47,884 nucleotides of DNA, from sequence record OM258170. One strand, 5' to 3'. The translations under genes were made by a program, and so were the position numbers. The notes under the pieces are model-generated. The model had not been told where the DNA came from. It saw nothing but the letters and a program-made list of their open reading frames with translations, and did no database searches. This DNA comes from Escherichia phage ZL19. Below, piece after piece: positions 9,971 through 23,926 of this stretch; positions within the stretch are counted from its first letter, which is position 1; every line of letters begins with the position of its first letter.

Positions 9971-10655
9971 GAGCCAGGTTAACCGCAATCTCAGTATTGC
10001 GGTAACTGAGTTAATTTCGGCAATGAGGGAGTCTGCAACAAGGCTTAAAATTGATACTGCAGATGAGCTTGAGGAAGAGGATGGATACCTTGACGGGATA
10101 ATTGCGGCGCTGGTGGCGTCATTTATATCAACCATCCCAGCTATAGGGGCAGCAATATACAGATACAATAGTTCGCAATTTCTTGTTCTTGCAATCAAGA
10201 CTGGAGGGAGATCTAATCCTAGCGTTCTAGACCTTGAATTTAACGGAATAAATGGCGATGAGCCGTGGTATAATGATGACCTCAAGAAGTGGATTTACAC
10301 CACGGATAAGTCAGCCAGAAAACTGCTAAACAACATCAAGGATGATTTCTTACAGACGGCTGCAACAATACAGAATGGTGACTACGTTAAGCTATCTGAC
10401 AGGTACAAAATCTACAGGAAGCGAACAGCAAACATTGCTTCTGGGATTGTTTCAAGCCTAAACTCGACACTCATGAGGCGCAGGCTTGAGGATGCTGGTG
10501 TTAGCCGCTATATCTGGCATGGCATGCTAGATGAGAGGGAGCGCCAATCACACATAGCAAGAGAAGGCCTTAGCTTTAAACTTGGTGGGGCAGATATATT
10601 TCCGGGCCAAGAGTACGGCTGTCGTTGCTGGTCAGTTCCAGATTGGGAATCATAA
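9927..10655 (+). CDS. head morphogenesis protein (Mu F / SPP1 gp7-like)
   Basis: C-terminal DERERQSHIA-type motif; overlaps portal 3' end; GTG start. Confidence 0.6.
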   Translation: MKPVTTRWKYPQTIESQVNRNLSIAVTELISAMRESATRLKIDTADELEEEDGYLDGIIAALVASFISTIPAIGAAIYRYNSSQFLVLAIKTGGRSNPSVLDLEFNGINGDEPWYNDDLKKWIYTTDKSARKLLNNIKDDFLQTAATIQNGDYVKLSDRYKIYRKRTANIASGIVSSLNSTLMRRRLEDAGVSRYIWHGMLDERERQSHIAREGLSFKLGGADIFPGQEYGCRCWSVPDWES

Positions 10656-10668
10656 TAGGAGAGTTTAA

Positions 10669-11757
10669 ATGAGTAAAATCCGCTATGACAGCGCAAAGTT
10701 TAAGGCAACAATCGACGAGAATGGATTCTTAGTCGACACACCAGTAGTCGCACGTCTCGGCGTGCAAGTCTACTACATGGAGGACGGTCGCACCGTTCGA
10801 GAGTTTCGTCCAGCAGAGGAGGTTTTCAAGTATGAGTCTCTGGCAAGTTACCAGGGCAAGCCAATGACGCTGGACCACGTCTTCGTTAACTCGGAGAATG
10901 CTAAAGACGTAGTGGTAGGTTCCGTTACTGGCAAGGCTGAACCATTGGGTAGCTCGGTCGTTGCTCCGATTGTTGTTTACGACAACACGGCCATTCAGGA
11001 AGCTATGGCAGGTAACGCCAAAGAGTTATCGGTTGGGTACTCCGCAGTTCTTGATGAGACCCCTGGCTGGGGCGACCCTATTACTGGCGAGTATGTACTT
11101 AAATCTGATGGTGAGCAATTCGATGCGCCTGAAGGATGGCAGGAGTTCGACGCAATTCAGCGTGACATTAAAGTTAACCATCTCGCAATGGTATATCGCG
11201 GTCGCGCAGGTATTGCCAAATTGAATATGGACGGTGAGCAGGAAAACCCGTATACTACTGACGTTGATATCAATAAAGAGGATAAACAGGAAATGACAGT
11301 TAAAATTAAACTCGACGGCGCGCAGGAATTTGAAGTCGCACCGGAAATCGCTTCTCACATCGAAGCGCTGAACGCAAAGGCTGACACTGCAATCGCAGAA
11401 CGCGATGCACTGAAAGCTAAAGTAGATGCAATCCCCTCTGAAATCGAGGCTGCTGTTGCTAAAGCGAAAGCTGATGCTGATGCTCTGGCTGCTCTGGTTG
11501 CTGTTGCTGCTGAAGCTGGTGTGAAAGCTGATGGTCTGGACGCTAAAGGCATCAAGATTGCTTACGTTAAAGAAGTCTCCGGCCTTGATGTTGCTGAGAA
11601 ATCTGACGCGTACATCGACGCAGCGTTCGACATTGCCAAAGAATCTGATAAAATGGCTGAAGTACGTAAAGCGACTACCGCTTCCGACAAATCTGACAGC
11701 GCCGATGAGCCTAAGAAATTAGACCCGCGTGCTCGTTTAGCTAAAATCAAGAAATAA
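10669..11757 (+). CDS. scaffolding protein, possibly with N-terminal prohead-protease-like domain
   Basis: C-terminal Ala/Lys/Glu-rich coiled-coil; N-terminal ~200 aa globular region; position before capsid gene. Confidence 0.5.
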   Translation: MSKIRYDSAKFKATIDENGFLVDTPVVARLGVQVYYMEDGRTVREFRPAEEVFKYESLASYQGKPMTLDHVFVNSENAKDVVVGSVTGKAEPLGSSVVAPIVVYDNTAIQEAMAGNAKELSVGYSAVLDETPGWGDPITGEYVLKSDGEQFDAPEGWQEFDAIQRDIKVNHLAMVYRGRAGIAKLNMDGEQENPYTTDVDINKEDKQEMTVKIKLDGAQEFEVAPEIASHIEALNAKADTAIAERDALKAKVDAIPSEIEAAVAKAKADADALAALVAVAAEAGVKADGLDAKGIKIAYVKEVSGLDVAEKSDAYIDAAFDIAKESDKMAEVRKATTASDKSDSADEPKKLDPRARLAKIKK

Positions 11758-11769
11758 GGAGTTATAAAC

Positions 11770-12249
11770 ATGGCAATTCGTTCTGTAGCACTCGCTGGTA
11801 TGATTTCTGATACCTCTCTGTATAACATCGACGGCGCATGTGTAGTTGGCGGCACTACTGCAATTCCAGTTGGGACTGTTGTTGGTGCGTCAGTGCCTGC
11901 TGATGAGCGCCTGGCTGGTCACAAGGTGATTGCAGCCACTGGCATCACTGCTGATAATGTTTACGGTGTGGTTGTTCGCTCTCATTACGAGACTCCTGAT
12001 GGGGCTGCTAAACCGCAAGAAGCTGTTAACGTGATGACACATGGTCGAATCTGGGTTCGCACCAGCCTTACTGCCGCGCCTACATTTGGTGCCCCAGTTC
12101 TTGTATCTGCCACTGGACTGGTTGAATCAGCAGGTGCAGTTGAGACTGGTTGGACTTTTGCAGGTGGTTACATCGCAAACACTGGCACAGACCCACAAAA
12201 CCTGAGCGTTGATGGCGCCCTGGTTGAAGTTCAGGTCAAGCAGAAGTAA
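11770..12249 (+). CDS. head structural/decoration protein (putative)
   Basis: Gly/Ala/Val-rich 159-aa ORF between scaffold and capsid genes. Confidence 0.4.
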   Translation: MAIRSVALAGMISDTSLYNIDGACVVGGTTAIPVGTVVGASVPADERLAGHKVIAATGITADNVYGVVVRSHYETPDGAAKPQEAVNVMTHGRIWVRTSLTAAPTFGAPVLVSATGLVESAGAVETGWTFAGGYIANTGTDPQNLSVDGALVEVQVKQK

Positions 12250-12266
12250 ATATTAAAGCTAAATTA

Positions 12267-12290
12267 AAGCCTCCTTCGGGAGGTTTTTTA
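12267..12290 (+). terminator. intrinsic terminator
   Basis: GCCTCC-TTCG-GGAGGT hairpin plus T6. Confidence 0.65.
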
Positions 12291-12614
12291 TTACCCATAA
12301 TCTGTTAGACTTATTATGTCTATTAACCAATCAGGAGATTAAGATGGATAGCGAATTAAGAGCAGCGCCCTAACACTTGGCGCCAGCTCTGCAGGACTTG
12401 GCTTGAGGACCGTTCACTACACGATAAAAGAGTGGGGTTCAAGATACATAGTGGAAATAGATATAACTCAACATGGAAGGGTTGGTGATTCTTCAATCCC
12501 AATTCAGGTAAGGATGGCATCTTATAAGTACTAACAAAGAGCCCACCATTGCGTGGGCTAAAAACTCGTGTATAATGAATCCGTAAACACATAACCGAAA
12601 AGGAACAACAAAGA

Positions 12615-13559
12615 ATGGCCATTAAATTTGATGCAGAACAAGCAAAAATCACCGCTCACCTCGAGCAAATGGGCGTAGAGAAAGCCGACGCCGCTGGTAT
12701 CTGGACTGTTAAGCAGCTTACCGCAACTCTGAATCGTGCTTACGAAAAAGAGTATGCAGACAATTCTGTTGTTAATATCTTCCCTGTAACCAATGAAATT
12801 CCTGGTCACGCGAAGTATTTCGAATACCCAGAGTTTGATGGTGTTGGTATCGCGCAGATTATCGCTGATTACTCTGATGACCTGCCGCTGGTTGATGCTT
12901 TCATGACCGAGAAACAAGGTAAAGTGTTCCGTTTCGGTAACGCATTCCTGATTTCTACTGATGAAATTAAAGCAGGCGCTGCAACTGGTCAGCCTCTGTC
13001 AGCTCGCAAGCAGGCACTGGCTTTCGAAGCGCACGACAACCTGCTGGATAAACTGGTTTGGTCTGGTTCCGCTCCCCACGGTATCGTAAGCGTATTCGAT
13101 CAGCCGAACATCAACAACGTTGTCGCAACACCAGACTGGAGTGCCCCGCAGAACGCAATTAATGACGTTACCGCAATGATTGACGCAGTTGAGACTTCAA
13201 CTCAGGGCTTCCATCATGTAACTGACATTCTGCTTCCGGCATCTGCCCGTCGAGTAATGCAGCGCCTTGTTCCGAATACAACTCTGAGCTACGGCGAGCT
13301 ATTCACTCGTAACAACCCAGGTATGACCATTCGTTTCATGCAGTTCCTGGACAACTACGATGGCGCAGGTGGTAAAGCTGCTCTGGCGTTTGAGAAGGAT
13401 CCGCTCAATATGTCCATTGAGATTCCAGAGGTTACCAACGTACTTCCGGCCCAACCTAAAGATCTGCATTTCCGCTACCCTGTAACATCAAAGGCTACAG
13501 GATTGATTGTTTATCGTCCGCTGACGATGGCTGTAATCAAAGGCATCACCTTTGCATAA
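12615..13559 (+). CDS. major capsid protein (putative)
   Basis: 314-aa ORF with GGAACAACAAAGA RBS, positioned after scaffold and followed by strong terminator. Confidence 0.65.
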   Translation: MAIKFDAEQAKITAHLEQMGVEKADAAGIWTVKQLTATLNRAYEKEYADNSVVNIFPVTNEIPGHAKYFEYPEFDGVGIAQIIADYSDDLPLVDAFMTEKQGKVFRFGNAFLISTDEIKAGAATGQPLSARKQALAFEAHDNLLDKLVWSGSAPHGIVSVFDQPNINNVVATPDWSAPQNAINDVTAMIDAVETSTQGFHHVTDILLPASARRVMQRLVPNTTLSYGELFTRNNPGMTIRFMQFLDNYDGAGGKAALAFEKDPLNMSIEIPEVTNVLPAQPKDLHFRYPVTSKATGLIVYRPLTMAVIKGITFA

Positions 13560-13563
13560 TAAA

Positions 13564-13588
13564 TCGCCCTCTTCGGAGGGCTTTTTTA
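13564..13588 (+). terminator. intrinsic terminator
   Basis: GCCCTC-TTCG-GAGGGC hairpin plus T6. Confidence 0.7.
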
Positions 13589-13651
13589 CGCCTGTACCAA
13601 ATGGAATTGTTGGGTTATAATCACCCAATCAGATAAACAAAGGAGACAAAG

Positions 13652-13897
13652 ATGATTAGTTTAGAACACACTGGTGCTTGCCTTATCGTTTACAAGGGTG
13701 AGAAATATTTGCCTGGTGACACTTTCGAGGTTGACGTAATTTGCGACGGCCTTAAGCGTTTAATCGCAGAGGGCAAGCTCACTATCGAAGGTGACGCCAA
13801 AACAACCAAGCAGATCGCGCAAGAAGTTATTAGCAAGAAAAAGCGCAAAGAACCGAAAACTATCTCCGAAGCTGAGACCGGTAACGAGTACAAATAA
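13652..13897 (+). CDS. hypothetical protein (81 aa, Lys-rich C-terminus)
   Basis: ORF with AAAGGAGA RBS. Confidence 0.4.
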   Translation: MISLEHTGACLIVYKGEKYLPGDTFEVDVICDGLKRLIAEGKLTIEGDAKTTKQIAQEVISKKKRKEPKTISEAETGNEYK

Positions 13898-13902
13898 CAA
13901 AC

Positions 13903-13922
13903 AGGGCGCTTCGGCGTCCTTT
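13903..13922 (+). terminator. intrinsic terminator (weak T-run)
   Basis: AGGGCGC-TTCG-GCGTCCT hairpin. Confidence 0.45.
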
Positions 13923-13938
13923 ATTGTATGGAGCTAAT

Positions 13939-14340
13939 ATGAATGATGAAATCTTGGCGTTTATGCGATCGCTTGTTCCTGCGCTCAAGGCAGTGGATGA
14001 TGAATCAATTAATGTGTGGATCGATTTGGCGCGTCTCTACGTATGTGCGGATAAGTTTGGTAATGATGCAGATCGCGCTGTGGGCCTTTATGCACTACAC
14101 CTGATGCTTTCTGATGGCGCATTTAAGGGGGAGAATGAAGGCTTGGAAACATACAGTCGTAGAATGGCAAGTTACGCACTGAGCGGTGAGTTCTCTATCA
14201 CTTATGATAATCAATCAGCAATCCAGGGTGACTTATCATCTTCCTCTTGGGGTCGCATGTACAAGGCACTTCTCCGCAAGAAAGGCGGCGGATTTGGATT
14301 GATTACTTCCGCTGCTGGCGGTGGGTGCGGTTGCCGATGA
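13939..14340 (+). CDS. head-tail connector/adaptor protein (putative)
   Basis: Track ORF 13924 starts at TTG; ATG 13939 after GGAG; position after capsid. Confidence 0.45.
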   Translation: MNDEILAFMRSLVPALKAVDDESINVWIDLARLYVCADKFGNDADRAVGLYALHLMLSDGAFKGENEGLETYSRRMASYALSGEFSITYDNQSAIQGDLSSSSWGRMYKALLRKKGGGFGLITSAAGGGCGCR

Positions 14341-14708
14341 ACTACAATGAAATCGAATCAATCACTCGCGCTGGCATTAACTTCTTTAGTGATGCCAATG
14401 GCGTTTACGAGATGAGCACTGGCGCTGGGTATGTTGAAATCGTTAACGGAGTTGAGGTTGAGGTTCCAGCAAGAAAATTCCAACTAAAGGGTTTGGTGCG
14501 AGAGATCAAGACTCGCGATATCGATGGCGAGTTTATCCAGTTTGGCGATAAGCGCGGAATCTTCACGGCCCAGGTAGAAATCAAGCAGGGTTATCAGATT
14601 AAAGTCGATGGTGAGACTTTTGTTGTTGTTGACCCGCGCCCCGTTAAACCAACAGGGACGACTGTTGGTTATCGTCCGATTCTTCGCAGGGTGGCTACTT
14701 ATGGCTAG
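14337..14708 (+). CDS. head-tail joining protein (putative)
   Basis: ATGA overlap with upstream gene; track ORF 14247 trimmed. Confidence 0.4.
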   Translation: MNYNEIESITRAGINFFSDANGVYEMSTGAGYVEIVNGVEVEVPARKFQLKGLVREIKTRDIDGEFIQFGDKRGIFTAQVEIKQGYQIKVDGETFVVVDPRPVKPTGTTVGYRPILRRVATYG

Positions 14709-15138
14709 AAACATGGGGAGTGTAGTTACGTTTGAGAAATCTATTGCTGACTGGATTGACAGAGCGGAGGATGGTTTTGGGATTGTGGTATCCAATACGG
14801 TTATCAAGACAGCAAACGCAATTGTTGACCTTTCACCCGTCGATACCGGCAGATTCAAGGCTAACTGGCAAATCTCCGCAAACTCACCAGCTCAGCAGTC
14901 ACTCAATGAGTACGACCAGACTGGCGGCCAGACCAAAACATATCTCGCCAGACAGGCTAGAGCGGTTGCCAACTCAAAAGCTACAAGTGTTATTTATATC
15001 ACCAATCGACTTGATTACGCGGTCGACCTTGAATACGGAGCTTCAAGCCAGGCTCCAGCTGGCGTTTTAGGTGTGGTGCAAGCAAGGCTGGGTAGGTATT
15101 TCCAGGAAGCAGTAGAGGAGGCTCGCCGTGCAATATGA
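14701..15138 (+). CDS. neck/tail component (putative)
   Basis: Track ORF 14608 trimmed to ATG overlapping upstream stop. Confidence 0.4.
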   Translation: MARNMGSVVTFEKSIADWIDRAEDGFGIVVSNTVIKTANAIVDLSPVDTGRFKANWQISANSPAQQSLNEYDQTGGQTKTYLARQARAVANSKATSVIYITNRLDYAVDLEYGASSQAPAGVLGVVQARLGRYFQEAVEEARRAI

Positions 15139-15529
15139 ATTATCATTAGCAGCAAGGAAATTCGTCAACGATTTGTTGGTAAATGAATTTCCTGTCAGAT
15201 ATCCAGTTGCTTGGGAGAACGCTGCCTTTGCGCCTCCTGCGGACGGCTCAATCTGGCTTAAGTACGACTACACAGAAGTTGACACAGTAACATACGGGTT
15301 AAGCAGGAAGTGCAAATACTACGTTGGCATGGTGCAGATTTCAGTGTTCTTCAGTCCGGGGACTGGGATTGATAAGCCGAGACAAATAGCTAATCAATTG
15401 GCAGAATCTATCGTTGATGGTACAATGCTTGACAGCGGGACCATTTATGAGTCTGGAGTTGTTAACCCGGTTATCAAATCCAAGTCTGGGTGGTTTATCC
15501 CGGTTCGTTTTTATGTTCGTCTAGACTAA
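15128..15529 (+). CDS. tail completion/terminator protein (putative)
   Basis: 133-aa ORF overlapping upstream gene, precedes major tail gene. Confidence 0.4.
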   Translation: MQYELSLAARKFVNDLLVNEFPVRYPVAWENAAFAPPADGSIWLKYDYTEVDTVTYGLSRKCKYYVGMVQISVFFSPGTGIDKPRQIANQLAESIVDGTMLDSGTIYESGVVNPVIKSKSGWFIPVRFYVRLD

Positions 15530-15544
15530 CAAAAGGAAAAATAC

Positions 15545-16201
15545 ATGGCCCATCTCAGCAATGGCACGCAGGTCTTCGTAGAAGGCTCTCGCGGAGCTGC
15601 AATCGACGTAACTGCAATTTCTAACGCAGTTACCCCTGTTTTAACTGTATCTGACGCGTCTGGTTTGGTCGTTGGTGATTACCTGCTTTTCACCTCTTCT
15701 GCTTCAACGCTTCTAGCTGACAAGCAAGTTCGAGTGACTGCAATCACTGGTACGTCAGTAACTGTTGAAGGTATTGATACCTCCAGCACCACAAAGTTCC
15801 CGGCTGGCTTAACTGGTGAAGTTGTCAAGATCACCTCCTGGTTCGAAGTTCCGTGCGTTCAGGACGTATCTACTGACGGTGGCGAACAGCAATTCGTTAA
15901 CTTCCAGTGCTTGTCCGATGACCGCGAACAGCAGATTCCGACTTATAAATCTGCGGTAACAAACACCTTCACCTTTGCTCACGAGTACACCAACCCGGTC
16001 TATCCGGTTCTGCGTAAATACGATGAGTCTGGCCAGGTTGTCGCGATTCGTCTGTTCGTACCTCGCGCTCAGGAAATGCGTTTGCAGTCCGGCACTATCG
16101 CTTTCAACGACACCCCTACCATTGGTGTTAACGAAATCGAAACGGTATCCATCGCAGTATCAATTCGTGGTCGCCTGTCCTCTGTGGCAGCTGAAGTTTA
16201 A
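15545..16201 (+). CDS. major tail protein
   Basis: 218-aa ORF with AAGGA RBS, followed by strong terminator, upstream of chaperones and tape measure. Confidence 0.6.
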   Translation: MAHLSNGTQVFVEGSRGAAIDVTAISNAVTPVLTVSDASGLVVGDYLLFTSSASTLLADKQVRVTAITGTSVTVEGIDTSSTTKFPAGLTGEVVKITSWFEVPCVQDVSTDGGEQQFVNFQCLSDDREQQIPTYKSAVTNTFTFAHEYTNPVYPVLRKYDESGQVVAIRLFVPRAQEMRLQSGTIAFNDTPTIGVNEIETVSIAVSIRGRLSSVAAEV

Positions 16202-16207
16202 AACACA

Positions 16208-16230
16208 AACCCTCTTCGGAGGGTTTTTTA
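16208..16230 (+). terminator. intrinsic terminator
   Basis: CCCTC-TTCG-GAGGG hairpin plus T6. Confidence 0.7.
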
Positions 16231-16235
16231 TTGCA

Positions 16236-16278
16236 TAGCACTTTTTGCTAAAGCACTTATTCAGCTTTACTGTATAGT
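16236..16278 (+). promoter_or_regulatory. palindrome-type promoter module
   Basis: TAGCACTTTTTGCTA 16236-16250; TG-TATAGT 16271-16278; CATCGAAACGAAATGAGAG leader. Confidence 0.55.
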
Positions 16279-16311
16279 TATCTCATCGAAACGAAATGAG
16301 AGATTAAAGAA

Positions 16312-16560
16312 ATGAATAACGTTAAAAACATCATCAAACTTGCTGCAGTTCTTGTTGCTTTTTATGCAGTAGTTCAGATTGTTAACCCAACTGGTGAGGC
16401 TGATGCCAATAGCAAGGCAAACAAATATACCGTTGAGTTCGCTAAAGCTGAGCGAGCATGTCAGGAGCTTGTGGGTAGTAAAGTTGACCAAATCATGAAA
16501 TATGGCAAAGAGGTCTGCAAGGACTCAGCTGCTAAGATTGCAAAAGAAAACACTAAGTAA
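16312..16560 (+). CDS. small secreted/membrane protein (moron-like)
   Basis: N-terminal hydrophobic segment; own promoter module between major tail and chaperone genes. Confidence 0.45.
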   Translation: MNNVKNIIKLAAVLVAFYAVVQIVNPTGEADANSKANKYTVEFAKAERACQELVGSKVDQIMKYGKEVCKDSAAKIAKENTK

Positions 16561-16599
16561 TAGAATACATACTCACAAACAATAAGAGGATTAACTAAG

Positions 16600-16914
16600 A
16601 TGGCTAAGTTCAAACTTTCACTGGCAGCACTCCCTGACTTCAAGCTTCCGGTAAAATTCAAGCTGGCTAACGACCAGGATGTAGAGGTTATCTTTACAGT
16701 CAAGCATAAGAAAACATCTGAGCTTCAGGAGCTTTTGCAGAAAGAAGACTTGAGTACTAAAGAATTGATTATGGCAATCGCCTCTGATTGGGATTTGGAA
16801 GAAGAATACAACGAGGATAACGTTAATGAGTTCTCCGACCTGTTCCCAGCGTCAACAGTTGCACTGACTACCGCTTACATGCAGGCACTGGCAGGCCAGC
16901 GGGTAAAAAACTAA
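16600..16914 (+). CDS. tail assembly chaperone (lambda G-like)
   Basis: Acidic 104-aa ORF immediately upstream of tape measure; ends at slippery site. Confidence 0.6.
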   Translation: MAKFKLSLAALPDFKLPVKFKLANDQDVEVIFTVKHKKTSELQELLQKEDLSTKELIMAIASDWDLEEEYNEDNVNEFSDLFPASTVALTTAYMQALAGQRVKN

Positions 16915-17234
16915 AGAGGGCGGTGTATCTACAGTACCAGTCAGATCCAACTGATGCCGAACTGGAAGCTATTGGGATGCGCCGCTCTGATTACGAAGAT
17001 GAAGAGCCTGAAGTTTTACACTTCGACGACAACATGATGAAGGCTTGGGACATTTATTGTTCAATGGCCACGCAATGGAGGGTTGGAGCTAACGGAGCTA
17101 CAGGGTTAGATTACAACGTGCTAAATTTCCTCTTTAGAGTGTATAATGTCTCAGAAGAAGAATTGGTGCTCAGTGATTTACGCATCCTTGAAGCTAAGGC
17201 TCTCGAGATGATGGATAATCTGAGAAAAAAATAA
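16600..17234 (+). CDS. tail assembly chaperone, frameshift-extended product (G-T-like)
   Basis: Predicted fusion of ORF 16600..16914 with -1 frame ORF ending 17234. Confidence 0.5.
16905..16911 (+). other. -1 programmed frameshift slippery heptamer A_AAA_AAC
   Basis: Heptamer 4 nt before G-frame stop; -1 frame is open from here through ORF 16923..17234. Confidence 0.6.
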
Positions 17235-17254
17235 CCCGCTTCGGCGGGTTTTCT
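17234..17254 (+). terminator. intrinsic terminator (short T-run)
   Basis: ACCCGC-TTCG-GCGGGT hairpin. Confidence 0.5.
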
Positions 17255-17269
17255 ATTATGGAGGCTTAG

Positions 17270-20245
17270 ATGGCAACAAATGAATTAGCCGGAATCACAC
17301 TAGCCGTAGACGTCTCGCAGGTAGACAGAGGTACACAGTCCCTGCGGAAGTTCAGGCAGGCAAACCAGCAGGCCGCTTCCGGCATTAGTGAGTTCGTCAA
17401 CGCCGAGCAGGTTGCAAAGAATCAAGCCAGAGACACAGCTCGCGCACTGGCTGAACAGCAATCATCTTTGGCTAAATTGCAAACGGCTATTGACCCAACT
17501 GCGGCAAAGTTCCGTAAACTCCAGGAGGCTGCTGTAGGTCTTGATAAGGCTTTCGCGGCTGGAGTAGTTCCTGATGAGGAGTTTTTCCGCTTAGGTGAGG
17601 CGCTTGAAACGCAGAACGCAAAACTTGCTCGTTCACGTGCGGCACTAACTGAAGAGGGTAGAGCGGCGGCGCAAGCTGCAAAGGATAAGGCAAAGGCAAA
17701 GGCTGAAGCGGATAGATTCATTGCATCACTTGAGCGTCAGGCTCAGGCGGCAACATTGACGCGAGAGGAGTACCTAAAGTTACAAGCGGCCCAGCTTGGC
17801 GTAAGTTCTCAGGCGGCGCCTATTATTGACAGAATCGCCGATGTATCACGGAAGGCAAACACCCAGCTAATTGCTCAGAGCAAGGCCTTTCAACGCTCTG
17901 GCTTAAGCGCAGGTCAATACAAGGCTGCAATCTCTCAATTGCCAGCGCAGATTACAGATATTGGGACATCACTTGCTGGCGGCATTCCGATTTGGCTTAT
18001 TGCAATTCAGCAAGGTGGACAAATTAAGGATGCATTTGGAGGTATTGGTAACACATTTAGTTTTGCGCTTGCTGCTTTAAACCCGTTCAACGTAGCAGTT
18101 GGGGTTCTCGGTGGCGCGCTTGTTGCTTTAGGCGTCGGTGCTGCGCAGGCTGAAAGTGAATTCAGGGCGTTAAACTCCGCCATTGCGTTCTCAAACAACT
18201 CCACAATCGCATCAATCTCGCAGGTTAGAGAGTTGGTTAGCTCTGTTTCTGATGCCACTGGTGCAACCAGAGGACTTGTGACTAGCATCGCAACAAGCCT
18301 TGTTGAGCAAGGAAACCTTACGCTAACGCAGATTGACAAGATTACTAAATCAACAGCCAGATGGGCTCAGTTGACAGGTAAGGATGCAAAGGAAATTACT
18401 GGTTACTATAACCAGATTGCGAGCGACCCAATTCAAGGACTTGCTGATTTAGACAAGAGGTTTAACTTCCTTACACAGGGGCAGTTAACAACAATTGAAA
18501 GATTGAGGGAGACTAGGGGTGAGGTTGAAGCCGTAACTGCTGCTATTGATATATTTAGCAAATCACAAGAGGCAAACCTTAACGATATTGCAGCCCAGCT
18601 TACTCCTCTTGAATTGGCCTGGAATGACTTCAGGAAGTACATATCTGATGTATGGGATGCAATTAGTCGCAGAACGGTTGGGGCGCTAAACCTGTTTGTT
18701 GACGTAATCGCCGGAACAATTGAGCAAATTAGGGTCTTCATCAACCAGGGTGATGTGCTGATTGGTGAATTCGTAATTAGCGCAACACAGGCACTGCAGA
18801 ACATCCCCGGCCTTGATGGTGTTGGTGATGATGTTGTCAAGGGACAGCAGAAGATTATCGATGCCGCTAAGAAGCAAAACATTGAGCTAGAGAAGTCTAT
18901 CAAGGAGCGCGATGCCAGAATCAGAGAAGGAGAACTTGGCTACGTTACTCGCAGAGAAAATCAGAATACCAATGAGCAGTCAGGCACGGATGAGGAGTTT
19001 GCAAAAAGGAAGAAAGCGCTTCAGGATGAACTTGATGCGATCAAGAAGAGCAGGAAAGAAGAAAATGGTAGGGTTAAAGAGCAAAGAGACCTTACAATTG
19101 GTTACGAATCTGGCGTACTTGCACTACAGGCACAACTCAAGGTGCTTCAGGAAAACAGGGATATTGGCGCAGTAATAAGCAATGAGCGCAAGCAGTATCT
19201 TCAGGAGGTTGCAAAATTCCAGATTCTTGAGCAAAGGCAGCGTGATGGCTCAATAAAAAAAGAGCAAGCAAGACTTCTCATTGAAAAGGATAAAGTTCTT
19301 GAGTTGGCCAGGCAGAAGGCTGAGCTAGGTGATCAGATTGTTTTGCAAGAAAGAGCCAATAAGTTGGCTGAAGATAACCGCAAGAAGATTCTTCAGATTA
19401 ACAATGAGGCAAGCAATATTGATTTGGGTACTGGATTATCATCTCGTGAACTGCAAAGAGCCAAAGAGATTCAGGCTCTTCAGTCCAATCAGGTCAATGC
19501 TGGTGGCTCTCTTGATGACGTTGATTTTCAGCAGCTACTGGAAGCAAGACGTAACTTTTATGCCCAGGAGGATGCGCTACGTGAAAACTGGCTCGCTGGT
19601 GTGAATCAATCCTTTGCCAATTGGGCTGAGAGCGCGACGGATGCATTCTCAATTGCTGGAAGTTTAACCACAACAGTCTTTGAAGGCATTACCGACCAGA
19701 TTACAAACCTCGTAACAACTGGCGAAACAAACTTCAGAGAGTTTACTGTTAGCATCCTTAAACAGATTGCTAAGATTGCAACCCAACTTCTTATTGTTAA
19801 GGCTATAGAGTCTAGCTTAAGTAGCTTCGGTGGTACTGGTGGCGCTATTGGTTCAATTTCTTCAGGTCTTGGTTTCGCTGGCGGCGGCTACACTGGTAAT
19901 GGCGGGAAATACCAACCAGCAGGTACTGTACATAAGGGTGAGTTTGTATTCACAAAAGAAGCGACTAGCAGAATTGGTGTTAAGAACCTTTACGCACTAA
20001 TGAAGGGATACGCAAACGGTGGCGCTGTAGGTGGTCCATCTGGTTATGCTAATGGTGGCTATGTTTCCGGCGGCTCGGATATTAATGTTAGTGGCATCAC
20101 TGTTAACGTTAATGGTGGCGTTGGTAGCGACCCAGAACAAGCTAAGGCGCTGCAAAGCGGAGTCAGGGCTATCGTAGCAGAGGAGATTGCTCAGTCCTTC
20201 CAGCAGGGCGGAAAAGCTTATCAGTACCTTCGCGGATTCAACTAA
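17270..20245 (+). CDS. tail tape measure protein
   Basis: 991 aa, Ala/Gln-rich coiled-coil with Gly-rich C-terminus, GGAGG RBS. Confidence 0.85.
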
Positions 20246-20275
20246 TTAACGGGGCTTTGGCCCCTAAGGATTTTT

Positions 20276-20626
20276 ATGGCTATTGATACTTTTAATTGGT
20301 GCACTCAGATACAGGGTGGATCAGCTTCATTCAGTAATACGAACAACGTGAGAGTTGTTAGCTTTGGCAATGGCTTTGAGCAAAGAGGCACGGGTGGTTA
20401 TCGCAGCAACAAGCGTAGCTACCAGATGACTTACACCAACAAGGATTGGCGCGATGTGATGGATTTCTGCTTCAACCACATCATCACTCCATTCTTCTGG
20501 ACCACTCCGCAGGGTGACACATCAATGTTTGTGATTCAGCAGGATAGCATTAGTGTTACACCGCTCAGTAAGGAAGTTCAGACTGTAAGTATGCAATTCG
20601 TAGAAGTATTTAGTTCAATGCGTTAA
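20276..20626 (+). CDS. minor tail protein (lambda M-like)
   Basis: 116-aa ORF directly after tape measure; FGNGFEQRG motif. Confidence 0.6.
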   Translation: MAIDTFNWCTQIQGGSASFSNTNNVRVVSFGNGFEQRGTGGYRSNKRSYQMTYTNKDWRDVMDFCFNHIITPFFWTTPQGDTSMFVIQQDSISVTPLSKEVQTVSMQFVEVFSSMR

Positions 20627-20630
20627 ACTA

Positions 20631-20653
20631 AGCCCCTATGCGGGGCTTTTTTA
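20631..20653 (+). terminator. intrinsic terminator
   Basis: AGCCCC-TATGC-GGGGC hairpin plus T6; near-duplicate of 8667-8689. Confidence 0.6.
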
Positions 20654-20665
20654 TTGGAGAAATAT

Positions 20666-21421
20666 ATGCTAAGTCCAAAGTTTGAAAATCAGTTGCAAAG
20701 CCTTTTTCCTGGCGAGATTGTGACACTAATCCAGGTAGACGGAACCTCATTTGGAAGTCTCGTTTACAACTTCCACAATGAGAACATTTCATACACACCA
20801 GAAGAGATTATGCTGGCCCAGATGAATGGCGAGCCACTACCAGAGAAGACTATTACATTTCGCGGTGAAGAGTATGGTCCTAGACCTTTCGGTATCTCGG
20901 GCATCAATATGACGTCTGACGGAAAGGCCAACAAAGTTACGCTAACAGTATCAAACGTAGATCAGCGTATTAGCGCGTTGATTCGCACATACAATGGACT
21001 CGTTAAGGCCAAGGTCACTATCTGGATTACTACGCGAGACAACATCAATGAGGATGGAAGTATTGCTGATGGGGATTATCGCCGCTTTGTATACTTCATT
21101 GAGCGACCAAAGCAGGTTGACTATAAGACTGCATCATTTGAGCTAAGCAGCCCGATGGATATGGATGGAATTTACATTCCTGCACGACTTGTTCAGTCGG
21201 TTTGCTATTGGGCTTCAAGGGGGTGGTATCGTAGCGGTAATGGGTGTTCATATGCTGGTAACAGATACTTTAGCAAGGATGATGAGCCAGTTGCAGACCC
21301 TTCATTAGACTTCTGTGCAGGAACTGTTAACAGTTGCAAACTTAGATTTGGTGAGAATAATCAGTTAGATTTCGGCGGCTGCGCTGCAGCAAGTCTTCAG
21401 GCTAAAGCCAATCAATCATAA
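20666..21421 (+). CDS. minor tail protein (lambda L-like)
   Basis: C-terminal Cys cluster typical of L-like tail tip proteins; track ORF 20654 starts at TTG. Confidence 0.65.
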   Translation: MLSPKFENQLQSLFPGEIVTLIQVDGTSFGSLVYNFHNENISYTPEEIMLAQMNGEPLPEKTITFRGEEYGPRPFGISGINMTSDGKANKVTLTVSNVDQRISALIRTYNGLVKAKVTIWITTRDNINEDGSIADGDYRRFVYFIERPKQVDYKTASFELSSPMDMDGIYIPARLVQSVCYWASRGWYRSGNGCSYAGNRYFSKDDEPVADPSLDFCAGTVNSCKLRFGENNQLDFGGCAAASLQAKANQS

Positions 21422-21445
21422 AAAAGGCCCCGAAAGGGGCCAAAA
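21422..21445. terminator. bidirectional terminator
   Basis: GGCCCC-GAAA-GGGGCC hairpin flanked by A-run and T-rich sequence, between convergent genes. Confidence 0.6.
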
Positions 21446-21943
21446 TTACCATCCAAGAGTTAACTGTGCTTCCTTGTAAAGGTTCTCCATTTCTTCTTTC
21501 CGCTGCTTCTTGACCCTCTTCCACTCAGATAGTGTCTTTCCGCAACTGCTAGCAATCTCAACCTCTGACTTTAACGTTCCGATTAACTCATTGCATTTCT
21601 GCATTACTGATTTATTTTCTTCTTTATACTCCTCTTTAAGAATTCGCTCCATTTCGTTAAAAGCATTAATGTAAGCTTCCTTCCACTTTGCTGCCTCCTT
21701 TCCGGTAAAGCCCATTGCTAGGAATGAGAAACCATCACGTGTAATGTCATAGCAATCTAACTTCTTGTTTTGCTTGGAAATATAAGATGAGGGCCGAAAA
21801 TTAGGCTCTCTAAATTCTTCGCTACAATCAAGTCCTCGAATAGCATCAAGCACGTGCTTGTGCGACTTACCAAACTTTTCTGAAACATCCTTTGATGTGA
21901 CTGTAATGCGACCATCTTTGCCTAAAGATACTAAATCGTTCAT
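21446..21943 (-). CDS. Rha-family phage regulatory protein
   Basis: N-terminal ITVTSKDVSEKFGKSHKHVLDAIRGL matches Rha domain pattern; track ORF trimmed to ATG with AGGTAGG RBS. Confidence 0.6.
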   Translation of the reverse strand: MNDLVSLGKDGRITVTSKDVSEKFGKSHKHVLDAIRGLDCSEEFREPNFRPSSYISKQNKKLDCYDITRDGFSFLAMGFTGKEAAKWKEAYINAFNEMERILKEEYKEENKSVMQKCNELIGTLKSEVEIASSCGKTLSEWKRVKKQRKEEMENLYKEAQLTLGW

Positions 21944-22039
21944 AATATACCTACCTGGTGAGTTGATTATTTGTTTATGGAGATTCAAATATAAAACTCC
22001 TAATAGGATTTGTCAAATCTTAAAATCATAGAGGTGAAG

Positions 22040-22798
22040 ATGTTAACACCAAAAGTTAAACTGGAAATCTTCCAGCACGCAAAAGAAGTTTACCCGCACG
22101 AATGTTGCGGGGTTGTCACGCAGAAAGGTCGCGCGCAGAAATACCACAGAATCAAGAACGCCAGCAAAGACCCAGAGAATGAATTCATCCTTGATTCAAA
22201 TGAGTATGCAGACGTTCTCTTTGAGTTGGCTCACAACGAGTCAATTGTTTATGTAGTTCACTCTCATACAGGCGATGGAGCCACAACAAGACCAAGCCCA
22301 GCGGACATTTGCAGCTGCAATGAGTGCGAGATTCCTTACGTTATCGTCAGCATTCCGGAAGGAGACATGCGGATCCTTGAACCTTCAACCATGCCACTGA
22401 TTGGTCGCCCATGGGGTCTTGGTAGCTTTGACTGCTGGGAGTTGGTAATGGCATTTCACAAGAAATACGGCGTCAAACTGAATGACTACCGCGTTAATTA
22501 CCCGTGGTGGGAGAAGCGATACAATGAGAATATCTATGAAGACAACTGGATTAAGGAAGGATTTGAGCTAGTAAAAACTTCAGATATTCCTATTGGCTCA
22601 ATGATTATGATGCAGGTTCAAAGTGAGGTGACAAACCACGCCGGAATCTATATTGGCAACAACAGATTCATTCATCACCTTTATGGTAAAATGAGTTCAG
22701 TTGATATCTACTCCGATTACTGGCGAGAGCGCACTGTGCGAATCGTTCGCCATAAGGATTTACCAGAGGATGTAATTTATGACCCAGAAACTGATTGA
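22040..22798 (+). CDS. tail assembly protein (lambda K-like, JAB/MPN + NlpC/P60)
   Basis: HECCGVV and HSH motifs plus C-terminal Cys/His region; track ORF 22010 starts at TTG. Confidence 0.7.
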   Translation: MLTPKVKLEIFQHAKEVYPHECCGVVTQKGRAQKYHRIKNASKDPENEFILDSNEYADVLFELAHNESIVYVVHSHTGDGATTRPSPADICSCNECEIPYVIVSIPEGDMRILEPSTMPLIGRPWGLGSFDCWELVMAFHKKYGVKLNDYRVNYPWWEKRYNENIYEDNWIKEGFELVKTSDIPIGSMIMMQVQSEVTNHAGIYIGNNRFIHHLYGKMSSVDIYSDYWRERTVRIVRHKDLPEDVIYDPETD

Positions 22799-23351
22799 TA
22801 TTAAGTTAGGCTTGTCTCTAGGCCGCAAGTTTGGAAAGATTCACCAGATGGCAGTGAATAGCGTGCCAGAGGCTATGCGAGCGCTTTGCTCTCAGATTCC
22901 TGCATTCAAGGAGTTCATGAGCAGCCACGTTGGGCAGAACACAAGATACGCAGTCTTTGTAGATGGTAAAAATGTGAACGAGCATCAAATCTCTGATTTT
23001 AGTGCCGTTCAGGAGATACGCATCTTGCCAATCCCGCAAGGCCGAAAGTCCGGCGGTTTGTTTCAGACAATTTTAGGTGCAGCGCTTATCACGGTTGGCA
23101 TCTTCACTGGGCAGATTTATCTTGTTGGTGCTGGCGTATCTTTGGCAGCAGGTGGTATTGCCCAGCTACTCTCACCGCAGGCAACTGGATTAAAGACCCA
23201 GAACAACCAAACAAGCAACAGAGCATCTTACGCATTTGGCTCCTCTGTAAACACGGTGGCTGCTGGTTATCCGGTTTGCCTTCCTTACGGCTATCGGACG
23301 GTTGGCGGGTCTGTATTTAGTGCAGGCAGTTATAGTGAAGATATTTCTTGA
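22779..23351 (+). CDS. tail assembly protein (lambda I-like)
   Basis: 190-aa ORF overlapping K 3' end, Gly-rich hydrophobic C-terminal half. Confidence 0.6.
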   Translation: MTQKLIDIKLGLSLGRKFGKIHQMAVNSVPEAMRALCSQIPAFKEFMSSHVGQNTRYAVFVDGKNVNEHQISDFSAVQEIRILPIPQGRKSGGLFQTILGAALITVGIFTGQIYLVGAGVSLAAGGIAQLLSPQATGLKTQNNQTSNRASYAFGSSVNTVAAGYPVCLPYGYRTVGGSVFSAGSYSEDIS

Positions 23352-23408
23352 TAATTAAATTATTCTGCATTACAGTCACCTTAAGATTTACTCTTTTGGT
23401 GACTTAAA

Positions 23409-23897
23409 ATGCAAAAATTCGAGAATTACCTTTACGAGATTGATGGAAAGCTATACTGGAAGGAGGCGAGAAACAACTCGGCCAAAATAGAGTCAGAGGC
23501 TGGATTTATTCATCATTCTGGCTATAGGTATGTTAAATTGAATGACAAACAGACTTCATCTCACAGGATTCTTTGGTACTTAAGAAATGGATTCAAGATG
23601 CCACCTAAAGGCATGGAGATTGACCATATAAATGGAAACAGGCTTGACAACTCAGCTAGTAACTTACGGATTGTATCTTCATCGGTAAACTCAAAAAACA
23701 GGTCAAAAAGGTCAGATAACTCAAGCGGCGTTGCGGGAGTTGGATTTCATAAGTTAACTGGAACGTGGTGGGCTACGATATCAATAAACAAAAAGAGAAA
23801 GCACTTGGGGCTATTCGTTGATTGGTTTGAAGCAGTGTGCGCCAGAAAGAGCGCTGAGAACTTAAATGGTGAGTACACCTATAGACATGGTAAGTAA
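23409..23897 (+). CDS. HNH homing endonuclease with AP2-like domain
   Basis: EIDHINGNRLDNSASNLR HNH motif plus GVAGVGFHKLTGTWWATI AP2-like segment; free-standing between I-like and J-like genes. Confidence 0.65.
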   Translation: MQKFENYLYEIDGKLYWKEARNNSAKIESEAGFIHHSGYRYVKLNDKQTSSHRILWYLRNGFKMPPKGMEIDHINGNRLDNSASNLRIVSSSVNSKNRSKRSDNSSGVAGVGFHKLTGTWWATISINKKRKHLGLFVDWFEAVCARKSAENLNGEYTYRHGK

Positions 23898-23905
23898 AAT
23901 CAGAA

Positions 23906-23926
23906 CCCGCCTGGCGCGGGTTTTTT
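23906..23926 (+). terminator. intrinsic terminator
   Basis: CCCGC-CTGGC-GCGGG hairpin plus T6. Confidence 0.6.

What the first reader, a model, noticed from the sequence alone, without database searches (positions are those of the whole stretch)
16236..16560. Promoter-equipped small secreted protein inserted between major tail and chaperone genes
An 82-aa protein with an N-terminal hydrophobic segment has its own palindrome-type promoter and follows the major-tail terminator, interrupting an otherwise conserved tail order. A similar promoter+terminator moron (8289..8645, internally duplicated acidic protein) sits between TerL and portal. Such morons often encode host-interaction functions.
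Basis: partly seen in the sequence, partly recalled or inferred. Interest (0 to 1): 0.4.

Follow-up and report, generated by a model that had tools for sequence, protein, structure and literature searches.

The report
Swappable exported-protein gene in phage tail operon
A T1-like E. coli phage carries a small, probably secreted protein of unknown function in a promoter-equipped slot between two tail genes; close relatives hold an unrelated lipoprotein in the same slot, and more distant relatives hold nothing there.

Summary
The window is a Braunvirinae (Drexlerviridae) coliphage, 99% identical to vB_EcoS-IME253.

**Layout.** ORF 16312..16560 (82 aa) follows the major-tail terminator (16207..16226) and precedes the tail chaperone genes. 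Upstream lies a perfect copy of the family's 21-nt palindromic repeat (16236..16252), with a TATAGT hexamer exactly 20 nt further on.

**Protein.** It has a Sec-type leader (K5/K9, 15 hydrophobic residues, NPTG, A-D-A|N). The ~50-aa basic helical mature part has two conserved Cys.

**Distribution.**
- About 1,070 of 1,160 related phages have no gene at this position.
- All 87 close relatives have the slot filled: 81 with this gene, 5 with the unrelated Rtp34 lipoprotein, 1 with a distant Rtp34 homologue.
- The promoter and leader are the same right up to the ATG, whatever the cargo.

**Homology.** Exhaustive sequence and fold searches found nothing outside this clade.

**Reading.** It is a moron-like, non-virion envelope effector, most likely acting after the receptor step, as HK97 gp15 and T4 Sp/Imm do. 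The function is inferred, not shown.

**Caveats.**
- No terminator separates the gene from the chaperone genes.
- The repeat's promoter role is untested.
- The companion gene 8289..8645 has a promoter and a terminator and is acidic, but its internal duplication is marginal.

Modest interest.

The parts
15545..16201 (+). Major tail (tube) protein gene; upstream boundary of the slot
   Evidence: PF08813, E 2.6e-68; phrog_584
16207..16232 (+). Intrinsic terminator of the major tail gene (8-bp stem, GC-rich, T run)
   Evidence: Terminator scan. Invariant in 7 relatives.
16236..16252 (+). Drexlerviridae 21-nt intergenic repeat core TAGCAC-TTT-TTGCTAAA (imperfect palindrome TAGCA-N5-TGCTA). Inferred upstream promoter element spanning about -49..-33.
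   Evidence: No mismatch to the consensus; 21 copies against 2 expected. Same element described for phage TLS in PMC11447400. Conserved in relatives.
16273..16278 (+). -10-like hexamer TATAGT, 20 nt after the repeat
   Evidence: Fixed 20-nt spacing in 14 of 18 window copies and 14 of 21 T1 copies. CTGTATA.TT is conserved while the spacer varies.
16284..16311 (+). Conserved start region and leader CATCGAAACGAAATGAGAGATTAAAGAA. Inferred transcription start near 16285; Shine-Dalgarno-like GAGAG at 16298..16302.
   Evidence: CATCGAAACGA recurs after 6 repeat-type promoters in the window. The leader is identical up to the ATG in phage Rtp, which has a different cargo gene.
16312..16407 (+). Codons 1-32: predicted Sec signal peptide (n-region K5/K9; h-region L10-V24; NPTG; A30-D31-A32, cleavage before N33)
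   Evidence: Sequence; hydropathy. Small residues are kept at -3/-1 in most homologues. SignalP-positive in phage MSK.
16408..16560 (+). Predicted mature 50-aa basic (pI 9.2) helical domain with conserved C50 and C69, plus the stop codon
16600..17234 (+). Tail assembly chaperone G/GT-type pair (16600..16914 and 16923..17234), co-transcribed downstream because no terminator intervenes
   Evidence: PF08748 and DUF1799. No terminator between 16560 and 16600.
17233..17250 (+). Next intrinsic terminator; probable end of the unit started at 16285
8215..8683 (+). Companion insertion: repeat 8215..8231, TATATT 8252..8257, 118-aa acidic ORF 8289..8645 (Rtp22 homologue), terminator 8667..8683
   Evidence: Absent between TerL and portal in phage OzMSK.

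Best explanation
The 82-aa ORF is the cargo of a clade-specific expression slot between the major tail and tail chaperone genes of Braunvirinae phages.

Proposed sequence of events:
1. Host RNA polymerase starts near 16285. The promoter consists of the family's 21-nt palindromic repeat (centre about -42) and a -10 hexamer. This is the same promoter type that heads nearly all non-structural transcription units of the phage.
2. The pre-protein is exported by the Sec pathway and is probably cut after Ala32.
3. This releases a ~5.5-kDa basic helical protein, with two conserved cysteines, into the periplasm.
4. There it acts on a conserved host envelope component rather than joining the virion.

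The most likely role is to protect the infected cell from further phage attack at a step after receptor binding (periplasm or inner-membrane DNA entry), or otherwise to condition the envelope.

What is shown: the anatomy, the insertion status, the cargo swapping, the lack of any homologue, and the independence from receptor type.

What is inferred: promoter activity, export and cleavage, periplasmic location, and the exclusion-type function.
For: **Insertion.** 1,160 phage records have major-tail + chaperone homologues. Sampled records below 80% identity show the two genes adjacent (span 1,030-1,145 nt). Spans of 1,366-1,509 nt occur only among the 87 records at 80% identity or more. T1, AHP42 and phiEB49 were confirmed gene-less.

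**Cargo swapping.** 81 records carry this gene. Five carry the 128-aa Rtp34 lipoprotein. TR1 carries a 126-aa lipoprotein 31% identical to Rtp34. 81 + 5 + 1 = 87. The two cargo families are unrelated (hhalign probability 0.3%). The terminator, repeat, -10 hexamer, leader and ribosome-binding site are conserved up to the ATG in all of them. CY1 adds a 46-aa two-transmembrane ORF in the same slot. Every cargo is an envelope protein.

**Hypervariability.** ACG-M12 is 97% and 96% identical in the flanking tail proteins but only 48% in the cargo.

**Promoter class.** There are 18 repeat-type promoters in the window. They lie ahead of small early-region genes, recombination, replication and lysis genes and the region holding the Cor-like lipoprotein. 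Only two lie in the 22-kb structural module, and both are at inserted genes.

**Export.** The leader has signal-peptide features. Most homologues keep small residues at -3/-1. Two Cys are conserved in all full-length homologues. The identical MSK protein was called positive by SignalP and TMHMM.

**Not receptor masking.** The protein is 100% identical in OzMSK, whose record annotates a putative LptD-binding receptor protein. It is 98.8% identical in IME253, a FepA user. The LptD users AugustePiccard and JeanPiccard carry different cargos. The window already has a Cor-like exclusion lipoprotein at 28514..28699.

**Precedent.** HK97 gp15 is a small inner-membrane protein encoded by a moron in the tail operon next to the chaperone and tape measure genes. 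It blocks DNA entry without touching the receptor (PMC3594210).
Against: - There is no functional evidence of any kind for this family. PHROG 22925 is 'unknown function'.
- No homologue exists outside one 50%-identity cluster among 1.84 billion representatives.
- There are no Pfam, NCBIfam, PADLOC or PDB hits.
- The AlphaFold model is weak (pLDDT 66), and fold searches gave nothing at E <= 0.001.
- The repeat has never been shown to be a promoter.
- No terminator separates the gene from the chaperone genes, so its expression may simply be coupled to tail assembly.
- The hydrophobic leader is the best-conserved part (23 of 28 residues against 24 of 54 elsewhere, versus AN_ECEAS). That is unusual for a disposable signal peptide and could mean a retained membrane anchor.
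- In ACG-M12 the -3 residue of the main predicted cleavage site is Glu.
- In the model C50 and C69 are not obviously opposite each other, so an intramolecular disulfide is unproven.
- Virulent phages gain less from exclusion than prophages do.
Confidence: 0.45

Rival explanations
1. Same gene and expression, but the N-terminal segment is not cleaved. The protein stays as a bitopic inner-membrane protein (N-in, C-out) and works inside the membrane, like HK97 gp15 or T4 Imm, for example by interfering with tape-measure-mediated channel formation.
For: The hydrophobic segment plus the QIVNPTG motif is the most conserved part of the family. TMHMM called a transmembrane helix in the identical MSK protein. 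The ACG-M12 variant has Glu at -3 of the main predicted cleavage site. The gene sits next to the chaperone and tape measure genes, as HK97 gene 15 does.
Against: The hydrophobic core is only 15 residues (L10-V24), short for a stable anchor. A helix breaker (NPTG) and an A-x-A motif follow it at the canonical distance. SignalP called a secretory signal peptide in MSK. There is no sequence similarity to YebO/gp15 (no Pfam hit).
Confidence: 0.22
2. The protein regulates lysis timing or lysis inhibition from the periplasm, as T4 RI antiholin does, or otherwise modulates the holin/endolysin/spanin system.
For: It is a small exported helical protein encoded outside the lysis cassette, like T4 rI (own knowledge). 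Its repeat is of the 'TTT' subtype, which also precedes the lysis cassette at 42188.
Against: No similarity to RI or to any PDB entry. The TTT subtype also precedes the helicase and other genes. The alternative cargo is a lipoprotein unrelated to known antiholins. The leader is not rich in Gly/Ala/Ser as signal-anchor-release domains are.
Confidence: 0.08
3. It is a tail-related protein, either a minor virion component or an assembly factor, as its position among the tail genes would suggest.
For: It is located in the tail module and probably co-transcribed with the chaperone genes, since no terminator lies between them. It is present in every close relative that lacks the lipoprotein.
Against: More than 1,000 related phages with homologous tail proteins lack it. 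Phages with 94-97% identical major tail proteins replace it with an unrelated lipoprotein. Tails assemble in the cytoplasm, whereas this protein has an export signal. Its promoter is of the type otherwise found at non-structural genes.
Confidence: 0.06
4. The important feature is the promoter, which restarts transcription of the chaperone and tape measure genes after the strong major-tail terminator. The small ORFs are interchangeable passengers with little or no function.
For: Gene-less relatives also have a -10-like TATAAT right after the major-tail terminator (AHP42 TGTTATAAT, phiEB49 TATAAT). T1 has a copy of the repeat in the same spacer, in inverted orientation. The cargo identity varies.
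Against: The ORF is kept intact at exactly 82 codons in 81 genomes and 39 metagenomic clusters, with mostly synonymous change among close relatives and conserved Cys, Gly and Lys positions across 48-57% identical subtypes. All the alternative cargos are envelope proteins, which is not expected of random passengers.
Confidence: 0.07

Closest known systems
HK97 gp15 moron (Juhala et al. 2000; Cumby et al. 2012; reviewed in PMC3594210)
   Same: Both are extra small genes inside a siphophage tail operon, next to the chaperone and tape measure genes, with a promoter of their own, encoding a small envelope-targeted protein. gp15 blocks DNA entry without touching the outer-membrane receptor. That matches the receptor-independence seen here.
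   Different: There is no sequence relationship (no YebO or other Pfam hit). The position is before the chaperone genes, not after them. No downstream terminator is present. The phage is virulent, so there is no prophage expression. The product is probably cleaved and soluble rather than membrane-inserted. No function has been tested.
T4 Spackle (Sp) and Imm, superinfection-exclusion proteins of a virulent phage (own knowledge)
   Same: These are small proteins made by a virulent phage, exported to the periplasm (Sp, with a cleaved signal peptide, helical) or inserted in the inner membrane (Imm). They act after adsorption.
   Different: No detectable sequence or fold similarity. Sp's target is a tail lysozyme, and I did not find one in this phage's tail genes.
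Cor / Llp / Rtp45 receptor-blocking lipoproteins of T1-like, T5 and Rtp phages (bioRxiv 10.1101/2025.07.07.663478; PMC13164509)
   Same: They are small exported proteins of the same phage family, made during lytic growth and located in the periplasm.
   Different: Those are lipoproteins encoded next to the receptor-binding gene, and they co-vary with the receptor. This protein has no lipobox and lies elsewhere. It is identical or nearly so in phages that use LptD and FepA. The window has its own Cor-like lipoprotein at 28514..28699.
Rtp34 lipoprotein family (phages Rtp, AugustePiccard, MM01, RobRod40; distant homologue in TR1)
   Same: It occupies exactly the same slot behind the same terminator, repeat, -10 hexamer and leader. 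It is also an exported protein with two conserved Cys beyond the lipid-anchor Cys, and also an orphan of unknown function.
   Different: The sequence and predicted fold are unrelated. It is a lipoprotein of 126-128 aa, against 82 aa with a signal-peptidase-I-type leader here.
21-nt intergenic direct repeat of T1-like phages, aaATAGCACnnnTTGnTAAAA (PMC11447400)
   Same: The 'palindrome-type promoter' at 16236..16252 is a perfect copy of this published repeat, lying in the direction of transcription about 76 nt before the start codon.
   Different: The authors left its function open (stoperator, enhancer site or UP element). The fixed 20-nt distance to a -10 hexamer found here argues that it is the upstream half of a promoter lacking a normally placed -35 element.

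Membership tests
Moron (Hendrix/Juhala sense) | Extra gene present in some genomes and absent at the same position in related genomes | tested here: met
   Sampled relatives below 80% identity, including T1, AHP42 and phiEB49, have the major tail and chaperone genes adjacent. The slot is filled only in the 87 close relatives.
Moron (Hendrix/Juhala sense) | Own promoter | tested here: inconclusive
   There is a perfect repeat plus TATAGT at the family-typical 20-nt spacing, with a phylogenetic footprint. No sigma-70 consensus hit was found. There are no transcript data, and the repeat's function is unproven.
Moron (Hendrix/Juhala sense) | Own downstream terminator, making an independent transcription unit | tested here: not met
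   No terminator-like site lies between 16560 and 16600; the next is at 17233..17250, after the chaperone genes. The companion gene 8289..8645 does have one, at 8667..8683.
Moron (Hendrix/Juhala sense) | Base composition different from the neighbouring genes | tested here: inconclusive
   GC is 40.2%, against 45.9 +/- 3.8% for 249-nt windows of the structural module. That puts it in the lowest 9%.
Moron (Hendrix/Juhala sense) | Expression from a repressed prophage to the benefit of the lysogen | not testable with these tools
   Drexlerviridae are virulent, so this criterion does not apply as written.
Sec signal peptide cleaved by signal peptidase I | Positively charged n-region, 7-15-residue hydrophobic h-region, helix breaker, and small residues at -3 and -1 | tested here: met
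   K5 and K9; L10-V24 (hydropathy 2.55); N25-P26-T27-G28; A30-D31-A32 before N33. The -1 residue is Ala in nearly all homologues, and -3 is A/T/V/S in most, but Glu in ACG-M12. SignalP was positive for the identical MSK protein, with gene identity inferred from locus-tag order.
Sec signal peptide cleaved by signal peptidase I | Demonstrated processing and periplasmic location | not testable with these tools
   This needs fusions and fractionation.
Bacterial lipoprotein (Cor/Llp/Rtp45-type exclusion proteins) | Lipobox [LVI][ASTVI][GAS]C at the end of the leader | tested here: not met
   There is no Cys in residues 1-49. The window's Cor-like protein (LAGC) and Rtp34 (LAGC) do have a lipobox.
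HK97 gp15 / YebO family | Sequence homology to YebO/gp15 | tested here: not met
   No Pfam family at E <= 1. The exhaustive profile search found nothing outside the protein's own cluster.
PHROG 22925 | Full-length profile match | tested here: met
   E 1.3e-55, residues 1-82 matched to profile positions 1-82 of 82; category 'unknown function'.
T1-like 21-nt intergenic repeat (PMC11447400) | Match to aaATAGCACnnnTTGnTAAAA, intergenic, in the direction of transcription, about 76 nt before a start codon | tested here: met
   gcATAGCACTTTTTGCTAAAg at 16234..16254, with the core starting 76 nt before the ATG at 16312.

The most novel reading that the evidence does not exclude
Braunvirinae phages keep a hypervariable 'envelope-effector' slot between the major tail and chaperone genes, driven by the family's unexplained 21-nt repeat promoter. 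The 82-aa protein would be the first member of a new class of periplasmic effectors of virulent siphophages. It would act independently of the outer-membrane receptor, for example by blocking the periplasmic or inner-membrane stage of DNA entry by competitors. The unrelated Rtp34 lipoprotein would be an alternative answer to the same problem.
Probability: 0.3. Interest if true: 0.55.

Novelty: new member of a known kind. Interest (0 to 1): 0.35.

Why it matters
T1-like phages are common laboratory and fermentation contaminants and are candidates for phage therapy. Their accessory genes decide how infected cells deal with competing phages.

This slot offers a natural experiment. Near-identical tail modules carry two unrelated exported proteins, or none, behind one conserved promoter. 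Swapping or deleting the cargo should show directly what it does.

The locus also gives a clean, well-footprinted test case for the function of the 21-nt repeat, which the authors of the TLS genome paper list as an open question. If the protein turns out to block infection after the receptor step, it would add a tool for studying siphophage DNA entry.

If it has no such role, it is one more small orphan phage gene.

Tried and rejected
**Homology.** All of these gave nothing useful for the 82-aa protein:
- Pfam, NCBIfam, PADLOC and PDB sequence searches.
- A word-indexed search of 5.8 billion proteins, which returned only close relatives.
- An exhaustive profile search of 1.84 billion representatives, which returned only the protein's own cluster plus one spurious hit.

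**Structure.** The AlphaFold2 model is three helices with pLDDT 66. Foldseek against PDB and BFVD gave no match at E <= 0.001.

**Is Rtp34 a known exclusion or inhibitor protein?** The Rtp34 model reached pLDDT 77.8 in only one of five models, and Foldseek against PDB gave nothing. Only leader-level PHROG hits appeared.

**Are the two cargo families distant homologues?** Rejected: hhalign probability 0.3%.

**Lpp-like C-terminal lysine for peptidoglycan attachment.** All cargo proteins end in Lys. This was rejected as evidence because 19 of 86 crude ORFs of this phage (22%) also end in Lys.

**Conserved N-terminus as proof of selection on a membrane anchor.** Inconclusive. Synonymous divergence is also lower in that region (6 of 23 conserved-residue codons against 11 of 24), so RNA-level constraint or recombination cannot be excluded.

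**Standard sigma-70 promoter.** None was found upstream of the ORF. TTGCTA lies 22 nt from the -10 hexamer, which is too far to serve as a normal -35 element.

**Literature.** The papers opened (PMC13164509, PMC13035648, PMC3347319, PMC8421802, PMC8594841) and a search for 'rtp34' gave no virion proteomics or functional data for this gene.
Full report
**What the window is.** Region 15500..17300 is 99.2% identical to Escherichia phages vB_EcoS-IME253 and phiA2-1. It is 88-96% identical to about 80 other coliphages of the subfamily Braunvirinae, family Drexlerviridae (T1-like siphophages). The local gene order is:
- tail terminator protein
- major tail protein, 15545..16201 (PF08813)
- the 82-aa ORF, 16312..16560
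- tail assembly chaperone, 16600..16914 (PF08748), and its frameshift partner, 16923..17234 (DUF1799)
- tape measure protein, 17270..20245

**Checking the observation.**
- A GC-rich hairpin plus T run (16207..16226) ends the major tail gene.
- The sequence TAGCACTTTTTGCTAAA lies at 16236..16252. This imperfect palindrome (TAGCA-N5-TGCTA) occurs 21 times in the window at 3 or fewer mismatches, against 2.0 expected, and no shuffle reached that count. The copy here is perfect.
- It is the published '21-nt intergenic direct repeat' of T1-like phages, aaATAGCACnnnTTGnTAAAA. The authors of the TLS genome paper found it in TLS, T1, Rtp and Rogue1 and explicitly left its function open (PMC11447400).
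- I aligned the 18 best window copies and the 21 copies in phage T1. A TAnnnT hexamer lies exactly 20 nt after the repeat in 14 of 18 and 14 of 21 copies. It is followed by a conserved start region, cCATCGAAACGA.
- The repeat would then span about -49 to -33, with the palindrome centre near -42, and no -35 hexamer at normal spacing. This looks like an activator-dependent, class-II-like promoter. That is my inference; no transcript data exist.
- The ordinary sigma-70 consensus scan finds nothing in 16230..16311.
- In seven relatives the terminator, repeat, CTGTATA.TT, CATCGAAACGAAATGA and the ribosome-binding region are conserved, while the 15-nt spacer between repeat and -10 hexamer varies freely. 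This is a clean phylogenetic footprint.

**The ORF is a real gene.** It is kept at exactly 82 codons in 81 phage records and 39 metagenomic protein clusters. Among close relatives most changes are synonymous (EC3a: 9 synonymous against 3 non-synonymous).

**The protein.**
- The leader is M-NNVKNIIK-LAAVLVAFYAVVQIV-NPTG-EADA|NS. It has two lysines, a 15-residue hydrophobic core (hydropathy 2.55), a helix breaker and an A-x-A motif.
- Across homologues position -1 is almost always Ala. Position -3 is A/T/V/S, except in ACG-M12, where an alternative T-R-A site lies three residues earlier.
- The paper on phage MSK reports that SignalP found only two signal peptides in that genome, one of them in MSK_000011. 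That gene follows the major tail gene MSK_000010 and precedes the tape measure gene MSK_000014 (PMC8421802). The MSK genome is the same length as OzMSK and matched the query region with identical statistics. The OzMSK protein is 100% identical to the window's. The gene identity is inferred from the locus-tag order.
- The predicted mature part is 50 aa with pI 9.2 and is predicted helical. Across three subtypes that are only 48-57% identical it keeps C50, G55, K57, Q60, G65, E67, C69 and a C-terminal K.
- The AlphaFold model is weak (pLDDT 66).
- The leader is the best-conserved part. This could mean it is retained as an anchor, but synonymous divergence is also low there, so this stays open.

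**Distribution.**
- I searched all phage records with the major tail and chaperone proteins fused into one query, so that the span of the match reports the size of the gap between them. Of 1,160 records with homologues, those sampled below 80% identity span 1,030-1,145 nt, which leaves no room for a gene. They include Rogunavirinae, Tunavirinae, Tempevirinae and the Klebsiella Webervirus phages.
- Spans of 1,366-1,509 nt occur only among the 87 records at 80% identity or more.
- T1 has a 113-nt spacer. AHP42 and phiEB49 have 72-74 nt, with no repeat.
- Within the clade the slot is always filled. 81 records carry the 82-aa gene. Five carry the 128-aa lipoprotein Rtp34: Rtp (two records), AugustePiccard, MM01 and RobRod40. 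TR1 carries a 126-aa lipoprotein that is 31% identical to Rtp34. These add up to 87.
- Two metagenomic homologues also sit in the same slot.

**The slot is a cargo-swapping site.**
- In Rtp the sequence from the terminator to the ATG is almost identical to the window's, including GAAACGAAATGAGAGATTAAAGAA-ATG. The coding sequence then changes to MKAIIAIMATLLLAGC..., a classical lipoprotein.
- The two cargo families are unrelated (hhalign probability 0.3%).
- CY1 has an additional 46-aa ORF with two hydrophobic segments (phrog_16572) between the promoter and its 82-aa gene.
- The flanks are far more conserved than the cargo. ACG-M12 is 97% and 96% identical in the major tail and chaperone proteins but 48% in the cargo. 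Rtp is 94% identical in the major tail protein with an unrelated cargo.
- So this is a fixed expression slot with exchangeable or fast-evolving cargo, and every cargo seen is an envelope protein.

**Expression class.** The 18 repeat-type promoters in the window lie ahead of:
- the small genes of both genome arms
- the recombinase, the helicase and other replication genes
- the lysis cassette
- the region holding the Cor-like lipoprotein

In the 22-kb structural module (6126..28502) there are only two, at 8215 and 16236. Both are at inserted genes. This links the 82-aa gene to the non-structural regulon. However, there is no terminator after the gene, so the same transcript should continue through the chaperone genes to the terminator at 17233..17250. 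Gene-less relatives have a -10-like TATAAT directly after the major-tail terminator. T1 has an inverted copy of the repeat in its spacer. Re-initiation at this point may therefore be older than the insertion, and the promoter is not strictly private to the gene.

**What it is not.**
- It is not a lipoprotein, because it has no lipobox.
- It does not track the receptor. The protein is 100% identical in OzMSK, which carries a putative LptD-binding protein. It is 98.8% identical in IME253, a FepA user according to PMC8594841. The LptD users AugustePiccard and JeanPiccard carry different cargos.
- The window already has a Cor-like lipoprotein, MKKLIVITAMILAGC..., at 28514..28699 on the minus strand beside the receptor-binding module.
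- A virion role is unlikely. It has an export signal, it is replaced by a lipoprotein in phages with near-identical tails, and it is absent from over a thousand phages with homologous tails.

**Function.**
- Nothing is known. PHROG 22925 is 'unknown function'. No homologue exists outside one 50%-identity cluster in 1.84 billion representatives. There are no Pfam, NCBIfam, PADLOC or PDB hits and no fold matches.
- Rtp34 is equally orphan.
- By anatomy and context, the best-supported model is a Sec-exported small periplasmic effector acting on a conserved envelope component after the receptor step.
- The nearest functional analogue is the HK97 gp15 moron, a small inner-membrane protein encoded in the tail operon next to the chaperone and tape measure genes. 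It blocks DNA entry independently of the receptor (PMC3594210). T4 Sp and Imm show that virulent phages use such proteins too (own knowledge).
- I put about 0.75 on 'exported, non-virion accessory protein', and about 0.3 on superinfection exclusion specifically.

**The companion gene, 8289..8645.**
- It has a perfect repeat (8215..8231), TATATT at the same 20-nt spacing, and a terminator at 8667..8683, so it is a full promoter-gene-terminator unit.
- The 118-aa product is acidic (pI 4.46) and is a homologue of Rtp22 and JK06 JK_35P. It is found in only 24 records and is absent between TerL and portal in OzMSK.
- PHROG 14592 and RefSeq label it 'virion structural protein'. I could not trace the evidence for that label.
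- The proposed internal duplication is marginal (17 of 500 shuffles score as high).

**Verdict.** What is new is modest: a clade-wide, cargo-swapping slot for exported proteins, and a fixed spacing that argues the family's enigmatic 21-nt repeat is half of a promoter. The protein itself is a new member of a known kind, the small exported phage accessory proteins, and its function is still untested.

Noticed in passing
window-wide: 1476, 2914, 3695, 4640, 8215, 16236, 28888(-), 30095(-), 31747, 35558, 37092, 39593, 40276, 42188, 45740(-), 46508(-), 47454(-), 47695(-); also L010 (phage T1): The published 21-nt T1-like intergenic repeat, whose function is listed as an open question in PMC11447400, is followed by a TAnnnT hexamer exactly 20 nt downstream in 14 of 18 window copies and 14 of 21 T1 copies. 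A conserved cCATCGAAACGA start region comes next. The palindrome centre falls near -42, with no normally spaced -35 element. It looks like an activator-dependent promoter family.
   Followed up: partly
L010 (phage T1) about 18833..18849, minus strand: T1 has no gene between its major tail and chaperone genes, but its 113-nt spacer holds a copy of the same 'TTT'-type repeat in inverted orientation. A TAAGAT hexamer lies 20 nt after it, pointing back into the major-tail terminator.
   Followed up: no
L002 (OzMSK) about 13785..13800: OzMSK has a 1-nt deletion in the T run of the repeat upstream of its 82-aa gene (TAGCACTTTTGCTAAA). It also has a G-to-T change in the conserved CATCGAAACGA. This could be a weakened promoter or a homopolymer sequencing error.
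   Followed up: no
L005 (CY1) about 1340..1480: CY1 has an extra 46-aa ORF with two hydrophobic segments (MILIGMLTAFFYYATGLTFWVSLGAAIGTYFVSALLALIVRALRNR; phrog_16572, E 2.2e-5). It lies between the slot promoter and the 82-aa gene and is not annotated in the record.
   Followed up: partly
window 28514..28699 (-), with a repeat-type promoter at 28888..28872 (-): An unlisted-size (61 aa) lipoprotein, MKKLIVITAMILAGC..., weakly matches the Cor superinfection-exclusion family (phrog_1119, E 7e-5). It lies beside the receptor-binding module 27337..28502. A perfect repeat-type promoter lies about 170 nt upstream, and another small ORF starts after that promoter.
   Followed up: partly
window 23409..23897 (+): An HNH endonuclease gene (PF13392; phrog_99, E 7.9e-55) sits inside the tail module, just before the central tail fibre (J-like) gene at 23939..27295. 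OzMSK has no gene at this position. It is a likely homing-endonuclease insertion.
   Followed up: no
window 8289..8645: The acidic 118-aa Rtp22 homologue is labelled 'virion structural protein' in PHROG 14592 and in RefSeq. Yet it is present in only 24 phage records and missing from OzMSK. I could not find the basis for the structural label.
   Followed up: partly
database records: Near-identical genomes are filed as 'Campylobacter phage A110b' (94.5%) and 'Pseudomonas phage PsgS01F' (91.7%). One homologue (P0036) is named as a Nitratidesulfovibrio liaohensis protein on a 46.7-kb contig. These are probably coliphage contaminants or mislabelled hosts.
   Followed up: no
P0054 / L012 1848..2243: A metagenomic Rtp34 homologue has lost the lipobox cysteine (..AAIGHN.. 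instead of ..LAGCN..) but keeps the rest of the protein and the same slot. This suggests a switch from a lipid anchor to a signal peptide or membrane anchor.
   Followed up: no
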